A stretch of 64,000 bases of DNA from a phage. Below are positions 1 through 4,658 of this stretch, in pieces. The first letter of the stretch is position 1; each line of letters starts with the position of its first letter. The notes beneath the pieces are model-generated. The model worked only from the letters and a program-made list of their open reading frames with translations. It did no database searches and was not told where the DNA came from. The DNA is taken from assembly GCA_024682255.1 (NCBI GenBank), contig GCA_024682255.1_4716.1. The stretch is one strand, 5' to 3'. Both the position numbers and the translations under genes were made by a program.

Positions 1-340
1 CACCGGATTCCCGTTAATTGCTGGAACCCCCTAAAGCCTTTCGACCACAGCGGATTCTGAAAAGAAAAACGCGATGGTTAGAAAACAGAAAGGATGTTCG
101 TAAGGAAGCGATAAATGGGCAATCAGCAGCGAAGCTTCTAAGGGCGTGCGTTAGCAATAAGACCTAAGAAGAACGTTCAACGACTATCCGGTCGCGCGGA
201 GTAAGGGACAAGCGTCCCCAAACACGGGAGGGGTGCGAAAGCATTCCATGATATAGTCTGCTCCTAAGTGAAAGCTTAGGCGGGTGGCACACACCGGCAT
301 AAGAGTTGCGTCTTATGTGGACAATGGCTTGACATCTCCT
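1..340 (+). ncRNA. Group I self-splicing intron, catalytic core (5' end and upstream exon outside window; 3' boundary approximate)
   Basis: Conserved group I elements in canonical order: P AATTGCTGG 16-24, Q AATCAGCAGC 121-130, R GTTCAACGACTAT 174-186, S GATATAGTC 250-258; hairpins 205-218 and 263-280; no long ORF. Confidence 0.6.
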
Positions 341-366
341 CGTCCTACCCGAATGGGCAGATCCTG

Positions 367-582
367 TTGAATCTATCCAGAGCATGTGTTTTTCGTGAGC
401 TCTCACGCATTGAGGGCGTCTCTGACTATCAATTCAGGAAGTTAGGTATCAACTTTATTACCGGAGGTAAAACGAACGCTGTAGACTTCTGTAGAATCGT
501 TTATAAAGCACCGTCGATGTTTGAACTTTTAGAACATTTCGATGCGACGCGTCCAAAAGAGGAAGCACGGACCATCGAATGA
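367..582 (+). CDS. Possible 3' exon or C-terminal coding segment downstream of the intron (frame open from 280; splice junction unknown)
   Basis: Only + strand ORF here, followed by hairpin 631-662; TTG start in ORF track, so more likely continuation of an interrupted gene. Confidence 0.3.
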   Translation: MNLSRACVFRELSRIEGVSDYQFRKLGINFITGGKTNAVDFCRIVYKAPSMFELLEHFDATRPKEEARTIE

Positions 583-630
583 ATCAAGTATGTTGATCCT
601 CGTTTAACAAAAAAGAAAACGCATGCGAAG

Positions 631-662
631 CCCCTCCCCCTGGCGGAAGCCGGAGGGAGGGG
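631..662. terminator. GC-rich hairpin with GNRA tetraloop between convergent genes (bidirectional terminator candidate)
   Basis: CCCCTCCCCCTGGC-GGAA-GCCGGAGGGAGGGG perfect extended stem. Confidence 0.5.
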
Positions 663-668
663 TGGGGT

Positions 669-1154
669 TTATGTGTGTTCGTTGCCAACTTTCACTTTGT
701 AATCAGCATCGGTTAAGAAAATAGACAGGAATCCATGTTCTTTGCAAATCTGACTAAGGATGTCAGCAATGATTTCGTTGATCATCGGTTTGTTTGCAAG
801 GGCATAGATGTACCCGGGTGTAAAAGAAAGTGCATGATTGATCATAGGCTCATGAGAAGCCAAGATAAGGATCACGTGATGCTTCCCATCGTCGGTAACG
901 ACCGCTTGCGTAGACACGAAGAAATCAGTGAAGCAGCAGCGATCACAGGCTTTAGGTATATACAAATCACCCAGAGCTTCGTCACGTGCTTTTACGTGTG
1001 TTTCAGGGGTAATGCTGCTAAGTTGATCTTCAGCGAGATCCAAGACATCCTCAATCGTTTTAAGAATAGCGTTGCGGAAATCCTCGCGGTAGAATGGGAT
1101 GATATCACGATCGTTCATGTAATCGCCGGATTCGATAGTAAAGTTGATGTTCAT
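669..1154 (-). CDS. Hypothetical protein (161 aa), small-gene island member
   Basis: ORF with AGGAG RBS upstream of ATG; hairpin downstream. Confidence 0.6.
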   Translation of the reverse strand: MNINFTIESGDYMNDRDIIPFYREDFRNAILKTIEDVLDLAEDQLSSITPETHVKARDEALGDLYIPKACDRCCFTDFFVSTQAVVTDDGKHHVILILASHEPMINHALSFTPGYIYALANKPMINEIIADILSQICKEHGFLSIFLTDADYKVKVGNEHT

Positions 1155-1224
1155 TGAATGCTCCTAGTGGTTATGTCGATTGATTGATGTATTGATTTAT
1201 GTTTGAAGGTGTTGTTCACCTTCG

Positions 1225-1665
1225 TTAGATATCATCATCCGTGGTGCCGTAGGACATATGCTGAATTAATTTTCTCGGCTCGATGAAAATACGACATGTG
1301 ATAAACACATCGGGATCGTATTGCTCCACGCAACGTCCGAAGGCTTGTTTTGCGGCTTGACGCACCGATGTTATTTCCTGATCGTTCATCGCATTATCGA
1401 ATTCGATGTTGATCGTGATTTTATCGGGAAATAAATAGATAAAGTAATCGCCACTGATACCACCATCATCAAAGTGACGTTCATTGTAACACTGGACGAG
1501 CTTACCTTCACGTTCTTTCTGATACCATCCAAGGATACTATTAAGACCTCTGTCCACGCATTCGAATGCTTGAGTAATAACATCCTCAACGACGGAGGCT
1601 GCCGTGGGACCATTGAATAGACGATCTAAGCGCTTTTTCATCGATTTGTCGGTTTTCATGTTCAT
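1225..1665 (-). CDS. Hypothetical protein (about 146 aa), small-gene island member
   Basis: ORF 1225-1692; likely start at internal ATG 1665 preceded by AGGAAAAG RBS; shares an I.I.F.N.MND.(D/E)I motif with the 669-1154 product. Confidence 0.6.
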   Translation of the reverse strand: MNMKTDKSMKKRLDRLFNGPTAASVVEDVITQAFECVDRGLNSILGWYQKEREGKLVQCYNERHFDDGGISGDYFIYLFPDKITINIEFDNAMNDQEITSVRQAAKQAFGRCVEQYDPDVFITCRIFIEPRKLIQHMSYGTTDDDI

Positions 1666-1742
1666 TGTTTCTTTTCCTGTTATAGTCAACATATAGCCCT
1701 TCCCCGGCCTTGACGGCTAGGGAAGGGTATGTTTACGTATAT

Positions 1743-2138
1743 TTACTCTTTGACGTCAGTTGTCGTTTCGACATGCTTCTCACTACTGACGTACCAGAGC
1801 AGGTACGCTGGGAAAAGATTGACCTCTAAGCTAAATGGGATATTGTATTTCTCTTCCATTTTACAGAGATGTTCTTTAAGTAAATTTCTCGCGTCTCTGT
1901 CACCACGAACAGAGTGCCAGTCTAGTTCTTTGTTCTCCTTTACCAGGACCTCTACGATGATACGTTGCTCGTGAACCTCGGTTTTCACAGTGAAAAGTAA
2001 ATCGCTGCTATCAAAACGGGTAAAACGAATGTATGAACCTGGTGTTTTTTCTTGTTTAATAATATCGATCATGGTAGAAATGCGCGGATGATCGATGTTG
2101 TCGTTAACAGCTTTAACGATGGATTCTACAATGCTCAT
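1743..2138 (-). CDS. Hypothetical protein (131 aa)
   Basis: ORF with AAGGA RBS before ATG; hairpin 1696-1728 downstream. Confidence 0.6.
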   Translation of the reverse strand: MSIVESIVKAVNDNIDHPRISTMIDIIKQEKTPGSYIRFTRFDSSDLLFTVKTEVHEQRIIVEVLVKENKELDWHSVRGDRDARNLLKEHLCKMEEKYNIPFSLEVNLFPAYLLWYVSSEKHVETTTDVKE

Positions 2139-2295
2139 TTTTTATCCTTAATGTTATCGATTTAGAAATATTACTTAATTACTGTTTTATTTATCGATGG
2201 TTGTTACCCATGATGGGAAAGCCGGATGGAAACAGAGCGTGAACGTAACCTTCGTATCGTATTTAATCGCTGAACTTTATCTTTGATAGACATGA

Positions 2296-2754
2296 TTACC
2301 CCTTAGCTCCTTCTTCGTCTGGAGAGTATTCCATCGTGTAGAATTCATAACCATCGGAAAACTTGAGTGTTAATGTAATAGGGAAATCGCACGGCATAGC
2401 TGATTTCGTAAATGCGTTATTAGCAACATCAGCCAACCGACGTATAGCATCGGTCCCGCTGACGCTGAACGGTAGTTGTATGTTGATAAGGATACGACGC
2501 TTGTAAACATAGAAAACAACGGTACTGTCGAGATAAACGCTATGGAACGGTATTGTTGGGATGCGTTCCACAATGGTAAAATACGTCCCGTCATTATCGC
2601 TATGCCCCATCGACCAAATATCGGATTTGCGTAGATTTTGTTTGAGGGATTCGATACTTCGAGTGACGGTCTCAGCAACAGGCGTGACGTAAGTGTCTCT
2701 ATGCGAGTCGAAAAGTTCGTTGACGTTAGATTCGAATGAATACATTGTTGCCAT
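2296..2754 (-). CDS. Hypothetical protein (152 aa), acidic C-terminus
   Basis: ORF in minus-strand array; hairpin 2783-2807 upstream. Confidence 0.55.
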   Translation of the reverse strand: MATMYSFESNVNELFDSHRDTYVTPVAETVTRSIESLKQNLRKSDIWSMGHSDNDGTYFTIVERIPTIPFHSVYLDSTVVFYVYKRRILINIQLPFSVSGTDAIRRLADVANNAFTKSAMPCDFPITLTLKFSDGYEFYTMEYSPDEEGAKG

Positions 2755-2820
2755 TTTCTACCTCAATAGTTTAACCGGCACGTGTCCCCACCTAACAAGG
2801 GACACGATATCATCGATTAA

Positions 2821-3321
2821 TTACTCTTCTGTGTTTTCATTGTCAGGATCGTAGTGGAATTCGAACAGCCCTGAACCGTCGTGCCCGTTGATTGTTAGTA
2901 TAACGGGCATATCGAATCCTCGGACGCGCGAATGAAAACACTGTGCTAATTTGAGTTTGGCGTATGCCACTATTTCATTGACGGCAATGCACGACTCACC
3001 TGTTATACTCAGTATAACGTCGATACTAACAATGTTGTCGTGCAACGCAAAACGCCAGCGATCGATACGATTATTATCTTTAGCAGGTGTCTCGTTTACG
3101 AGATAGACTTTATCGTCAACCGACAAAGCGGGACTCCAGCAACGTTCGTTTATTAAATTCGCCTGGAGTTTTAGTATCGTCTGATCAATAATATCCCAAC
3201 ACGCAACCAGCGTGGCGTCAGACACTGAATTGAGAAGGGTGAGTACTTTATCCTTTATTTTAAGTGCTTCCGCAGGACGCCCGCAAATACCATGCATTTC
3301 AACTTTCTTATTCATATTCAC
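2821..3321 (-). CDS. Hypothetical protein (166 aa), acidic C-terminus
   Basis: ORF in minus-strand array. Confidence 0.55.
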   Translation of the reverse strand: MNMNKKVEMHGICGRPAEALKIKDKVLTLLNSVSDATLVACWDIIDQTILKLQANLINERCWSPALSVDDKVYLVNETPAKDNNRIDRWRFALHDNIVSIDVILSITGESCIAVNEIVAYAKLKLAQCFHSRVRGFDMPVILTINGHDGSGLFEFHYDPDNENTEE

Positions 3322-3360
3322 TTCTTTCTTAATCTAAATGTTAGTTGGGGGATGGGATGC

Positions 3361-3993
3361 TTACATGCTTTCTAGCATATTGACGATCATGGAACCCATA
3401 CCGAAACTCGGTCTCTCACCGATATACTCAGCAAGTTGACGGTGTACGTCTTTTGGATTTCCTTCTTCACCGTCAGCATCGATGTAGACCGAAAAAGAAA
3501 CCGAATCGGAATCCACGCTGATAACCAGACGACGTTCATTGCGTTCCTTGAGCGTGTCGACGATAGATGCTTTCAGTACCGGGATCGCATTCATCGCGTG
3601 CAAGATATCTCCATCAGGTCTCGCCAGATCGATCTTTTCTTTCAGGTCGATATTGATGTTGGTTACAATTGGGTTGAGGTCGACCTTGACATAATCGTTG
3701 GGATACATGCGAATAATCGCACGATCGATATCTGAACCGTAAAAGTCAACACGTGGCTTTAACACCTCTTTGTTTGGATCCATGTTTTCATCCATACCCG
3801 CCTGCAAGAAACGTTCTACGTTATCCAGTTCACGATAAACTGACGCTTCGATTTCTTTCAGATAGTTGGCTGCGGTTTCATGTTCTTTACGTAGCTCGTC
3901 TTTAAGGAGCTGTACGGTGGTTTCACTGGAACGAATGCTGTTCGCGAATTGGGTAATTGACATATCGAATTCCTTAAATTCTCTTGAGTTCAA
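3361..3993 (-). CDS. Hypothetical protein (210 aa)
   Basis: ORF in minus-strand array; strong terminator 4028-4045 upstream. Confidence 0.6.
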   Translation of the reverse strand: MNSREFKEFDMSITQFANSIRSSETTVQLLKDELRKEHETAANYLKEIEASVYRELDNVERFLQAGMDENMDPNKEVLKPRVDFYGSDIDRAIIRMYPNDYVKVDLNPIVTNINIDLKEKIDLARPDGDILHAMNAIPVLKASIVDTLKERNERRLVISVDSDSVSFSVYIDADGEEGNPKDVHRQLAEYIGERPSFGMGSMIVNMLESM

Positions 3994-4027
3994 TTGATGA
4001 TGAAAAGCTGTAAAAAAGGTGGGGCGA

Positions 4028-4045
4028 ACCCCACCAAAACGTCAG
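4028..4045 (-). terminator. Rho-independent terminator (minus strand) after gene 4061-4486
   Basis: GGTGGGG-CGAA-CCCCACC stem-loop followed on minus strand by T6. Confidence 0.7.
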
Positions 4046-4060
4046 ACACACGCAGGAAAA

Positions 4061-4486
4061 TTAATTCAGTGACGCATATAAGGCATAACGACTGTAGATT
4101 TCAACCGCCGGTCCGTTATGCGTTAACAGACCATCCCGGTTGTAATACTGGAAAAATGAATAACGTTTGTCGAAGTGATAAACAAAAGCAATGTCTTTGC
4201 CGTCAAAACCTGTGATGCGTGGTCTGTTTTTATCTAGCAATGCTTTAACTTTTAACAGTGTTGCCGCACGTGCTTTAACGTTAGGGATCAAGCCATCACA
4301 ATCGATATAAACAGTGTAACCTGTTTCAGATGTTGCGACGGTCGTATTGCGATTGACGCGGAAGATTTTTGTTTCGTATGTACTATCTTCAAGAATTGGG
4401 TTTTGTTTTTCGTATTTTCGTTTACGCAGAAATTCTACAACGGTGATATAGTTAGCGGTAATATGCCCGGTTATAGCTTGTAACAT
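4061..4486 (-). CDS. Hypothetical protein (141 aa)
   Basis: ORF with conserved leader ATCCAATATAAAAGGATGTCGAG before ATG. Confidence 0.6.
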   Translation of the reverse strand: MLQAITGHITANYITVVEFLRKRKYEKQNPILEDSTYETKIFRVNRNTTVATSETGYTVYIDCDGLIPNVKARAATLLKVKALLDKNRPRITGFDGKDIAFVYHFDKRYSFFQYYNRDGLLTHNGPAVEIYSRYALYASLN

Positions 4487-4658
4487 CTCGACATCCTTTT
4501 ATATTGGATTGATTGCAATTGTCTTAAATAGATGATAAGATATTTTGCTCTTATCACTAAGGTAACGCTTACGCGTCGCGTTCATGATGCATGGCATCAT
4601 GAAGGTAATGTAGTCGTGAAATAAACTGCGTTAACACGAAATAAAAAACAGCATAGAA

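What the first reader, a model, noticed from the sequence alone, without database searches (positions are those of the whole stretch)
1..582. Window opens inside a group I intron with all four conserved core elements
P, Q, R and S elements occur in canonical order and spacing with P4 pairing (TGCTG/CAGCA), a P7 pair (GACTAT/ATAGTC) and flanking hairpins, and there is no intron ORF. The interrupted gene is not identifiable: the upstream exon is outside the window and the downstream segment (frame open 280-582) has no recognisable motif. A minimal ORF-less group I intron in an enterobacterial-type phage gene is notable.
Basis: partly seen in the sequence, partly recalled or inferred. Interest (0 to 1): 0.6.

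Follow-up and report, generated by a model that had tools for sequence, protein, structure and literature searches.

The report
Endonuclease-carrying intron splitting phage DNA polymerase
The window opens in the last 327 bases of a 1.5-kb self-splicing group I intron that carries its own HNH homing-endonuclease gene and interrupts the catalytic motif A of the DNA polymerase gene of a Goslar-like jumbo phage: a classic mobile phage intron, real but not ORF-less or unusual in kind.

Summary
The group I intron call is correct. Rfam RF00028 scores 59.8 bits (E 1e-12) on window 1-280, and 68.7 bits once upstream sequence is added.

1. **The intron is not ORF-less.** A Logan contig identical to the window (0 mismatches in 4,588 nt) shows a 1,536-nt intron. 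It carries a 368-aa HNH/NUMOD1 endonuclease ORF that ends 33 nt before window base 1.
2. **The host gene is identifiable.** It is the chimallivirus DNA polymerase (phiKZ gp082 family). The window phage is a relative of Escherichia phage Goslar.

About 286 intron-less homologues fix the junction at ...RLFVAD|LDISSSYPNG. The 5' splice site follows a U, and the TAA stop of the 499-aa upstream ORF is the first intron codon. The last intron base is G327, and exon 2 is 328-582, not 280-582. The insertion lies two codons before the motif A catalytic Asp.

Goslar carries a divergent intron and endonuclease at the same site, unannotated in GenBank and RefSeq. Synonymous changes cluster around the site, which suggests homing. 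This is a new member of a well-known kind, of modest interest.

The parts
1..327 (+). 3' terminal 327 nt of a 1,536-nt group I intron (full intron = L004 5797..4262, minus strand of that locus). Contains the ribozyme core from the end of P2 to the terminal G.
   Evidence: RF00028 59.8 bits in the window and 68.7 bits with upstream sequence. The 3' boundary comes from the protein alignment with intron-less homologues.
1..5 (+). Last 5 nt (CACCG) of the P2 3' strand. P2 is CGGUGGGG/CCCCACCG, and the rest lies upstream of the window.
   Evidence: Sequence of L004 and mini-construct fold.
8..14 (+). P3 5' strand (UUCCCGU), pairing with 224-230.
   Evidence: Rfam alignment and constrained fold. G13-C225 becomes U-A in the Goslar intron.
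19..24 (+).
   Evidence: 100% of cells paired across 6 introns (helix 3).
28..119 (+). P5 (28-30/117-119) with a roughly 85-nt P5 extension (helices 37-47/75-93 and 98-101/108-111).
   Evidence: Constrained fold and covariation in helices 4-6.
129..176 (+). P6 (129-131/174-176) and P6a (135-139/167-171, 141-143/163-165).
   Evidence: helices 7-8, 93-100% paired.
182..187 (+).
   Evidence: Direct complementarity. There is a compensatory U185-A255 to C-G change in the Goslar-type intron (GACCAU/AUGGUC).
188..218 (+). P7.1 (188-190/197-199) and P7.2 (205-209/214-218) hairpins between P7 and P3', as in subgroup IA phage introns.
   Evidence: Constrained fold. The subgroup assignment rests on my recollection of the Michel & Westhof classification and was not tested.
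224..230 (+). P3 3' strand (ACGGGAG).
231..246 (+). P8 hairpin GGGUGC-GAAA-GCAUUC.
253..258 (+). P7 3' strand AUAGUC.
   Evidence: helix 9.
263..280 (+). P9 hairpin CCUAAGU-GAAA-GCUUAGG. The Rfam model ends here, but the intron does not.
   Evidence: 90.5% of cells paired, with 5 pairs changed on both sides (helix 13).
283..318 (+). P9.1 (283-286/292-295) and P9.2 (297-304/311-318) 3' extension hairpins.
   Evidence: The P9.2 stems differ but stay complementary in the PhiPA3 and KEN49 introns.
327..327 (+). Terminal intron guanosine (omega-G). The 3' splice site lies between G327 and C328.
   Evidence: Protein-level junction ...VAD|LDI.... Goslar homology begins at 327. Splicing at G280 would shift the frame into a stop.
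328..582 (+). Exon 2 of the DNA polymerase gene: 84 codons (LDISSSYPNG...ARTIE) plus the TGA stop at 580-582.
   Evidence: The spliced 583-aa product matches PHROG 3011 'DNA polymerase' end to end (594.6 bits).
331..351 (+). Family-B polymerase motif A (D-I-S-S-S-Y-P). D501 aligns with the catalytic Asp of RB69 motif A (FDLTSLYP).
   Evidence: Profile versus PDB alignment and pattern scan.
631..662 (.). GC-rich hairpin (13 of 14 bp) between the convergent polymerase gene and the minus-strand gene 669-1154. Probably a bidirectional terminator.
   Evidence: Fold at -39 kcal/mol, z = -4.6. It does not meet the T-run terminator rule. It is conserved in Goslar.

Best explanation
Window 1-327 is the catalytic 3' portion of a 1,536-nt mobile group I intron. 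The intron interrupts the DNA polymerase gene (phiKZ gp082 family; PolB-like exonuclease domain plus motif A) of a Goslar-like nucleus-forming jumbo phage of E. coli.

**Boundaries.** The intron sits between codons D499 and L500, two codons upstream of the motif A catalytic aspartate. Exon 1 ends ...GCG GAU. The intron begins UAA, which acts as the stop of the unspliced 499-aa ORF, and ends at G327. Exon 2 is 328-582.

**Splicing (inferred, not shown).** The RNA is expected to self-splice by the standard group I route.
1. An external guanosine attacks after the U of a U-G pair in P1. The exon sequence GGAU|U pairs with the guide sequence GGUCC that lies directly 5' of P2.
2. The freed exon 1 then attacks after the terminal G327. 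This gives mRNA for a 583-aa polymerase.

**Endonuclease ORF.** A 368-aa HNH/NUMOD1 ORF lies in the terminal loop of an extended P1. The loop is closed by a 13-bp long-range helix that spans the ORF's stop codon, and the ORF's Shine-Dalgarno sequence is buried in a hairpin. By analogy with I-HmuI, I-BasI and PhiPA3 gp210, the enzyme is inferred to nick or cut intron-less (or rival-intron) polymerase alleles of co-infecting relatives. That would drive homing with co-conversion of the flanking exon sequence.
For: **Ribozyme.**
- RF00028 scores 59.8 bits, E 1.2e-12 in the window, and 68.7 bits, E 1.3e-16 with upstream sequence.
- The full helix set P3-P9.2 was derived.
- Covariation over 6 related introns gives 75% of cells paired versus 37-48% in slid controls, 31 pairs changed on both sides versus 10-18, and 0/500 shuffles reaching the observed score.
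- P7 U-A becomes C-G and P3 G-C becomes U-A in the Goslar-type intron.

**Upstream sequence.** L004 is identical to the window over 4,588 nt. It carries the 499-aa ORF and the HNH ORF.

**Junction.**
- 286 of 291 chimallivirus records have one uninterrupted ORF across the junction.
- The alignment shows invariant D499-L500-D501 with no gap only for ...VAD|LDI....
- That junction independently satisfies both group I rules: U before the 5' splice site and G before the 3' splice site.
- The spliced product covers PHROG 3011 positions 5-570 of 576, E 4e-178.

**Exon 2 is translated in the spliced frame.** Codons 328-366 differ from Goslar at 11 of 39 nt with no amino-acid change. No in-frame start codon exists before 367.

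**Endonuclease.** Pfam HNH_3 scores 33.5 and NUMOD1 24.9 bits, both above their cut-offs. PHROG 59 HNH endonuclease scores E 2e-22.

**P1 extension.** The 13-bp helix was reached by 1 of 2,000 shuffles. Goslar has an 8-bp helix of different sequence at the same place, and the MFE fold of its mini-construct recovers P1, the P1 extension and P2 exactly.

**Mobility signature.** Substitution density is 5- to 10-fold higher, and purely synonymous, within 60 nt either side of the site. Flank variants are shuffled relative to intron type among four genomes.
Against: - No experimental evidence of splicing or of endonuclease activity exists.
- The P1 core is only 5 bp, two of them G-U. It is not recovered in the MFE fold of the window-type mini-construct.
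- P10 is only about 2 bp.
- The Goslar 8-bp P1 extension is not significant on its own (262 of 2,000 shuffles).
- The Goslar-type ribozyme scores 44.7 bits, below the Rfam gathering score of 50.
- No intron-less allele was found among close relatives, so homing targets are hypothetical.
- The HNH protein has no sequence-level match to any solved structure.
- The upstream part of the intron rests on a second assembly (L004), not on the window itself.
Confidence: 0.9

Rival explanations
1. One reading: a minimal, ORF-less group I intron of a few hundred nt in an unidentifiable gene, with exon 2 starting about 280.
For: Within the window there is no sizeable ORF in 1-327, and the Rfam model alignment ends at 280.
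Against: The identical contig L004 shows a 368-aa HNH ORF between the 5' splice site and the ribozyme core. The segment 281-327 is 47 nt, so splicing at G280 onto the codon-phase-0 exon 1 reads into a stop after 29 codons. Homologues have no insertion at ...VAD|LDI.... The segment 281-327 forms the P9.1 and P9.2 hairpins, which are shared with the PhiPA3 and KEN49 introns.
Confidence: 0.02
2. A small (about 370 nt) intron whose 5' splice site lies just after the HNH stop codon, as the full-length Rfam alignment places P1. The HNH gene would then be free-standing, between polymerase exon 1 and the intron.
For: cmscan aligns model positions 1-38 (P1/P2) to L004 4634-4590, directly after the ORF.
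Against: That 'P1' has several non-canonical pairs and is forced by the glocal alignment. This model would leave the polymerase ORF terminated at TAA, with the HNH gene in between, and no way to join ...VAD to LDI... The strong hairpin there is better read as P2, preceded by the guide sequence GGUCC, which complements the real exon 1 end GGAU|U. The GGUCC sequence is conserved in Goslar although the surrounding sequence is not.
Confidence: 0.03
3. A decayed, non-splicing intron remnant. The polymerase would be made as a truncated 499-aa protein, with or without a separate small C-terminal peptide started at TTG 367.
For: GenBank and RefSeq annotate Goslar gp068 as a 499-aa protein. The Goslar ribozyme scores below the Rfam gathering threshold. 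A TTG-initiated 71-aa ORF exists at 367-582.
Against: Motif A (328-366), including the catalytic Asp, lies upstream of any possible start codon. It is nevertheless perfectly conserved at the protein level despite 11 of 39 nt changes. All core helices, the U at -1 and the terminal G are intact in four genomes and two divergent intron types, with compensatory changes. The gene is a core chimallivirus gene, uninterrupted in 286 records.
Confidence: 0.05

Closest known systems
Group I introns with HNH nicking endonucleases in phage DNA polymerase genes (Bacillus phages SPO1/SP82 I-HmuI/I-HmuII, Bastille I-BasI; cyanophage Pf-WMP3 I-PfoP3I)
   Same: A self-splicing group I intron in a conserved catalytic region of a DNA polymerase gene, carrying an HNH-family homing endonuclease with a NUMOD-type DNA-binding module. 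Related phages carry similar introns with highly divergent ORFs at the same site. These systems are cited in PMC12908238 and PMC11620839.
   Different: The host polymerase here is the divergent chimallivirus gp082-type protein, not a PolA-type enzyme as I recall for SPO1. The Pfam I-HmuI_NUMOD-like model scores only 12.4 bits against a cut-off of 27, and there is no sequence match to solved I-HmuI. The ORF appears to sit in the P1 loop. Activity is untested.
PhiPA3 gp210 intron (HNH endonuclease in a group I intron of an RNA polymerase subunit gene; Birkholz et al. 2024, PMC11620839), and the PhiPA3/phiKZ-like nvRNAP-gene introns
   Same: The same virus family (nucleus-forming Chimalliviridae). 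The PhiPA3 gene-065 and KEN49 introns share the ribozyme core and the P9.1/P9.2 extension with the window intron, at 66-78% nt identity over parts.
   Different: The interrupted gene is different (DNA polymerase, not RNAP), and so is the host genus (Escherichia, not Pseudomonas). No functional data exist. Interference competition is only an extrapolation here.
Escherichia phage Goslar gp068-gp069 locus (MK327938 / NC_048170)
   Same: The same insertion site to the nucleotide (GAU|UAA ... G|CUY GAY) and the same layout: exon 1, HNH ORF, ribozyme, exon 2. Exons are 93-97% identical.
   Different: The intron is a different variant. It is 1,762 nt rather than 1,536 nt. The HNH proteins are only 41% identical. 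The ribozyme is not alignable by blastn except for short patches. It scores 44.7 rather than 68.7 bits. In the database records the intron and exon 2 are not annotated.
T4 td / nrdB / nrdD introns (subgroup IA2 phage introns with looped-out endonuclease ORFs)
   Same: A phage group I intron with P7.1/P7.2 hairpins, an ORF looped out of a peripheral helix, and the endonuclease ribosome-binding site sequestered in RNA structure (the comparison is from my own knowledge).
   Different: The T4 endonucleases are GIY-YIG (I-TevI/II) or HNH (I-TevIII), placed in the P6 or P9 loops, and the host genes are in nucleotide metabolism.

Membership tests
Group I catalytic intron (Rfam RF00028) | Covariance-model score at or above the curated gathering score (50 bits) | tested here: met
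   59.8 bits, E 1.2e-12 on window 1-280, truncated at the 5' end. 68.7 bits, E 1.3e-16 with upstream sequence.
Group I catalytic intron (Rfam RF00028) | Conserved core helices P3-P4-P6 and P7-P3-P8, with the P7 pseudoknot formed by the R and S elements | tested here: met
   Helices located. Covariation: 75% of cells paired versus 37-48% in slid controls, 0/500 shuffles. There are compensatory changes in P7 and P3 against the Goslar intron.
Group I catalytic intron (Rfam RF00028) | 5' splice site after a U that forms a U-G wobble with an internal guide sequence in P1 | tested here: inconclusive
   Exon 1 ends in U (GAU|UAA). The candidate guide GGUCC lies directly 5' of P2, is conserved in both intron types, and pairs with GGAU|U. 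The Goslar mini-construct folds this way, but the window type does not in its MFE fold. The helix is only 5 bp.
Group I catalytic intron (Rfam RF00028) | Intron ends in a guanosine (omega-G), and excision restores a continuous conserved ORF | tested here: met
   G327|C328. The junction ...VAD|LDI... matches 286 uninterrupted homologues. The spliced product covers PHROG 3011 end to end.
Group I catalytic intron (Rfam RF00028) | Guanosine-dependent self-splicing activity | not testable with these tools
   Needs in-vitro transcription and splicing, or RT-PCR.
HNH homing endonuclease (I-HmuI-like, intron-encoded) | HNH (beta-beta-alpha-metal) nuclease motif | tested here: met
   Pfam HNH_3 scores 33.5 bits against a cut-off of 24.8 at residues 185-211. 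The NH.NGIK.D..N.EW.TY.ENN.HA pattern is conserved between the window and Goslar proteins. PHROG 59 scores E 2e-22.
HNH homing endonuclease (I-HmuI-like, intron-encoded) | NUMOD-type DNA-binding module C-terminal to the nuclease | tested here: met
   NUMOD1 scores 24.9 bits against a cut-off of 22.8 at residues 312-338. The I-HmuI_NUMOD-like model scores only 12.4 against 27, so specific I-HmuI-subfamily membership is not shown.
HNH homing endonuclease (I-HmuI-like, intron-encoded) | Site-specific nicking or cleavage of the intron-less allele, and intron homing | not testable with these tools
   There is only indirect support: synonymous hot spots and shuffled flanks around the insertion site. 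No intron-less close allele was found.
Family B DNA polymerase (host gene) | 3'-5' exonuclease domain of PolB type | tested here: inconclusive
   Pfam DNA_pol_B_exo1 scores 16.4 bits, below its cut-off of 23. The five-sequence profile hits RB69/T4-type polymerase chains at E 0.004 over the Exo III region.
Family B DNA polymerase (host gene) | Motif A DxxSLYPS | tested here: met
   LDISSSYPNG aligns collinearly with RB69 FDLTSLYPS. D501, Y506 and P507 are invariant in the chimallivirus proteins.
Family B DNA polymerase (host gene) | Motifs B (Kx3NSxYG) and C (YGDTDS) downstream of motif A | tested here: not met
   The protein ends about 80 aa after motif A. No motif B or C pattern occurs in any frame of the 64-kb window. 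I therefore file the host protein as 'chimallivirus DNA polymerase, phiKZ gp082 / PHROG 3011 family', not as a demonstrated complete PolB.

The most novel reading that the evidence does not exclude
The two sharply divergent intron/HNH variants that occupy the identical motif A site in otherwise about 97%-identical Goslar-lineage polymerase genes may be rival 'weapons'. Each endonuclease would attack the polymerase gene of a co-infecting relative that carries the other variant or none, as with I-HmuI/I-HmuII and PhiPA3 gp210. The dense synonymous recoding of the flanking 60 nt would then be target-site immunity or co-conversion scars. This would extend intron-mediated interference competition to the replication machinery of an E. 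coli nucleus-forming phage.
Probability: 0.25. Interest if true: 0.55.

Novelty: new member of a known kind. Interest (0 to 1): 0.3.

Why it matters
1. **Gene-model correction.** Goslar is a model chimallivirus, and its DNA polymerase is annotated as a 499-aa protein that stops two codons short of the catalytic aspartate. The real product is predicted to be a spliced 583-aa protein. The intron, exon 2 and the homing-endonuclease role of gp069 are missing from GenBank and RefSeq. This affects proteomics searches, knock-down or editing designs, and core-genome comparisons.
2. **A tractable E. coli system.** Intron-endonuclease competition between nucleus-forming phages has so far been shown only for PhiPA3 and phiKZ. 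Here there are two natural rival intron variants at one site, which could be studied in E. coli.
3. **Kind of element.** An HNH-bearing group I intron in a phage polymerase active-site motif is textbook biology, so the conceptual novelty is low.

Tried and rejected
- **Splice acceptor at G280, the end of the Rfam model.** Rejected: it gives a frame shift and a stop, and 281-327 forms the conserved P9.1/P9.2 hairpins.
- **The Rfam 'P1' just after the HNH stop.** Rejected as a forced alignment, because the true 5' splice site is 1.2 kb upstream.
- **Goslar locus at Rfam gathering threshold.** No hit. The intron appears only at E-value threshold, at 44.7 bits, because of large P5, P6 and P8 insertions.
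- **Intron-less close alleles.** I searched with the exon1-exon2 junction as a DNA pattern. There was no hit in IMG/VR. The single metagenome hit, L015, is a chance match with no homology and no ORF.
- **HNH protein against PDB sequences.** No hit.
- **Sigma-70 promoter and intrinsic-terminator scan of 1-1300.** Nothing above shuffle expectation.
- **Pol B motifs B and C in all six frames of the window.** None found.
- **Goslar genome paper (PMC6563267).** It does not mention introns or homing endonucleases.

Full report

Yes. A scan of the whole 64-kb window against all 4,227 Rfam families gives one hit at gathering level. It is Intron_gpI (RF00028) at window 1-280 on the + strand, 59.8 bits (gathering score 50), E 1.2e-12. 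The hit covers model positions 39-253 and is flagged as cut off at the 5' end.

- P4 is UGCUGG 19-24 with UCAGCA 123-128.
- P7 is GACUAU 182-187 with AUAGUC 253-258.
- A constrained fold adds P3 (8-14/224-230), P5 with a long extension (28-119) and P6/P6a (129-176).
- It also adds P7.1 and P7.2 (188-218), P8 with a GAAA loop (231-246), P9 (263-280), P9.1 (283-295) and P9.2 (297-318).

**2. What genome is this, and what lies upstream?**

The window is a relative of Escherichia phage vB_EcoM_Goslar, a nucleus-forming jumbo phage, at 89% nt identity from position 345 onward.

In Goslar the homologous point is preceded by three things. The first is gp068, a 499-aa protein with a weak DNA_pol_B_exo1 match. 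The second is gp069, a NUMOD1/HNH_3 protein. The third is 820 unannotated nt, the last part of which matches window 327-600. RefSeq annotates no join there.

An exact-protein look-up of the neighbouring gene (window 669-1154, minus strand) recovered a Logan contig, L004 (SRR13870916_223). It is identical to window 1-4588 with 0 mismatches and extends 9,332 nt upstream.

Two ORFs lie upstream of window base 1 on that contig.
- A 368-aa ORF ends 33 nt before the window start. Pfam gives HNH_3 at 33.5 bits and NUMOD1 at 24.9 bits, both above their cut-offs. PHROG 59 HNH endonuclease scores E 2e-22.
- Upstream of that is a 499-aa ORF ending ...RLFVAD-TAA.

With this sequence added, RF00028 scores 68.7 bits, E 1.3e-16. 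The 'ORF-less' impression is therefore an artefact of where the window begins.

**3. The interrupted gene and the exact splice sites**

The segment downstream of the ribozyme reads LDISSSYPNGQILLNLS, which resembles family-B polymerase motif A.

- A tblastn search with the joined peptide found 291 phage records, all chimalliviruses. In 286 of them a single uninterrupted ORF spans the junction. These are annotated 'DNA polymerase', for example phiKZ gp082.
- Alignment with four such proteins shows invariant D499-L500-D501. It is gap-free only for the junction ...RLFVAD|LDISSSYPNG.
- At the nucleotide level exon 1 ends GAU. The intron starts UAA, which is the stop of the unspliced ORF, and ends at G327. 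Exon 2 starts at C328.
- The two canonical group I rules, U before the 5' splice site and G as the last intron base, are both met at exactly this protein-defined junction.
- The intron is 1,536 nt (L004 5797..4262). Exon 2 is 328-582.
- Splicing at G280, where the Rfam model ends, is impossible. The segment 281-327 is 47 nt, and that frame hits a stop.
- The spliced 583-aa product matches PHROG 3011 'DNA polymerase' from profile position 5 to 570 of 576, at 594.6 bits.
- A profile of the chimallivirus proteins hits RB69/T4-type family-B polymerases at E 0.004 on the exonuclease region. It then aligns collinearly, with 'hvaDLDisssyP' on RB69 'YVMSFDLTSLYP'. The insertion is thus two codons before the motif A catalytic Asp.

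Exon 2 must be translated in the spliced frame. Codons 328-366 differ from Goslar at 11 of 39 nt without any amino-acid change. Yet no ATG, GTG or TTG precedes 367 in that frame.

**4. Architecture of the 5' part (outside the window)**

- Directly 5' of a strong P2 hairpin (CGGUGGGG/CCCCACCG, whose last 5 nt are window 1-5) lies GGUCC. This sequence is conserved in both intron types and complements GGAU|U at the 5' splice site.
- Intron nt +9 to +21 (AAAUCGGUUAAGU) pair with GCUUAACCGAUUU, which spans the HNH stop codon. This gives 13 bp, reached by 1 of 2,000 shuffles.
- Goslar has an 8-bp helix of different sequence (UCGUUCUG/UAGAACGA) at the equivalent place. It is not significant alone (262 of 2,000 shuffles). 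However, the MFE fold of the ORF-deleted Goslar mini-construct gives exactly P1, then an internal loop, then the P1 extension, then P2.

I infer that the endonuclease ORF sits in the terminal loop of an extended P1. The P1 core is short (5 bp, two of them G-U) and is not recovered in the window-type MFE fold. I therefore rate this feature as probable, not shown.

In both intron types the endonuclease Shine-Dalgarno sequence is buried in a stable hairpin (-15.7 and -26 kcal/mol). This is reminiscent of translational control of T4 intron endonucleases (my own knowledge).

**5. Comparative evidence**

IMG/VR holds three Goslar-lineage genomes.
- One is Goslar itself.
- L012 carries a Goslar-type intron.
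- L011 carries a window-type intron, 95% identical.

All four genomes carry an intron at this site, and there are two types. The types differ as follows.
- The HNH proteins are only 41% identical.
- The ribozymes are barely alignable by blastn.
- The Goslar ribozyme scores 44.7 bits, below the gathering score, because of large insertions.
- The types show compensatory changes: P7 U185-A255 becomes C-G, and P3 G13-C225 becomes U-A.

The window ribozyme is also related to introns in RNA polymerase genes of PhiPA3 and a phiKZ-like phage. These share the P9.1/P9.2 extension, with different but complementary P9.2 stems.

Counting my structure on that alignment gives 75% of cells paired versus 37-48% for slid controls. 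There are 31 pairs with changes on both sides versus 10-18, and 0 of 500 shuffles reach the observed score. Two caveats apply. The structure was derived from one of the aligned sequences, and the MAFFT alignment was not fitted to structure.

**6. Signature of mobility**

Across the polymerase coding sequence the four genomes differ at 1-5 sites per 100 nt. Within 60 nt either side of the insertion site they differ at 7-25 per 100 nt, and every change there is synonymous.

The flank variants are shuffled relative to intron type. L011 has the window-type intron with a Goslar-like exon 1 flank. L012 has the Goslar-type intron with a largely window-like exon 1 flank.

This is what co-conversion during homing, or selection for altered endonuclease target sites, would produce. 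It parallels the SPO1/SP82 situation cited in PMC12908238. It is indirect evidence only, and no intron-less close allele was found. The single metagenome hit to the junction pattern is a chance match.

**7. Mechanism**

Shown:
- the ribozyme core, by covariance model and covariation;
- the junction that restores a conserved ORF;
- an intact HNH/NUMOD1 ORF within the intron.

Inferred:
- guanosine-initiated two-step self-splicing;
- P1 formed with the guide sequence GGUCC;
- nicking or cleavage of cognate intron-less (or rival) alleles by the endonuclease;
- homing with co-conversion.

**8. Comparison with what is known, and novelty**

HNH-bearing group I introns in phage DNA polymerase genes are classical. 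Examples are SPO1/SP82 I-HmuI/II, Bastille I-BasI and Pf-WMP3 I-PfoP3I. Intron endonucleases in chimalliviruses are documented for PhiPA3 gp210 (PMC11620839, PMC12908238).

I found no report of this intron in the Goslar lineage. The Goslar genome paper does not mention introns, and the database records truncate the polymerase at 499 aa. This is therefore a new member of a known kind. Its main value is as an annotation correction, and as a possible E. coli model for intron competition.

**9. Verdict**

The intron is real, and its identity and splice sites are now defined. I score interest at 0.3.

Noticed in passing
window 328-390, and the last 60 nt of exon 1 (L004 5798-5857): There is a hot spot of purely synonymous differences around the intron insertion site: 13-25 per 100 nt versus 1-3 elsewhere between the window phage, L011, Goslar and L012. 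It includes TCN to AGY serine codon switches. Flank variants are shuffled relative to intron type.
   Followed up: partly
L004 5727-5775 (minus strand; upstream of the window) and L001 4245-4313: The Shine-Dalgarno sequence of the intron endonuclease ORF is sequestered in a stable hairpin in both intron types (-15.7 and -26 kcal/mol). This suggests translational down-regulation of the endonuclease.
   Followed up: partly
window 328-582 and the whole window: The chimallivirus 'DNA polymerase' (phiKZ gp082 family) ends only about 80 aa after motif A. No Pol B motif B or C pattern occurs in any frame of the 64-kb window. The rest of a canonical PolB palm, fingers and thumb is therefore either encoded elsewhere or too diverged to recognise.
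   Followed up: partly
window 631-662: A GC-rich 14-position hairpin (13 pairs, GGAA loop) sits between the convergent polymerase gene and the minus-strand gene 669-1154. The fold is -39 kcal/mol, z = -4.6. It is conserved in Goslar and L011. It is probably a bidirectional terminator, although it fails the simple T-run rule.
   Followed up: partly
L001 4222-6235 (Goslar MK327938 81187-83200): The GenBank and RefSeq records of Goslar annotate only exon 1 (gp068, 499 aa) and the endonuclease (gp069). The 1,762-nt intron and the 84-codon exon 2 are unannotated.
   Followed up: yes
window 669-3993, minus strand: A run of at least six tandem minus-strand ORFs of about 130-210 aa (669-1154, 1225-1692, 1743-2138, 2296-2754, 2821-3321, 3361-3993) has no Pfam hits on record. 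They correspond to Goslar hypothetical proteins gp070-gp074. They may be a paralogous small-protein array.
   Followed up: no
phage record PQ287644.1 (Pseudomonas phage HHBS8_1) 46512-46826: This EL-like phage matches only the C-terminal half of the junction query, and the match lies under two 'DNA polymerase' features. The same gene may be interrupted or split at a different position there.
   Followed up: no
L003 2132-4261 (Pseudomonas phage KEN49): Three group I introns at gathering level (76-89 bits) lie within about 2 kb of an RNA polymerase beta-subunit region. The gene callers fragmented this region into many tiny 'hypothetical protein' ORFs.
   Followed up: no
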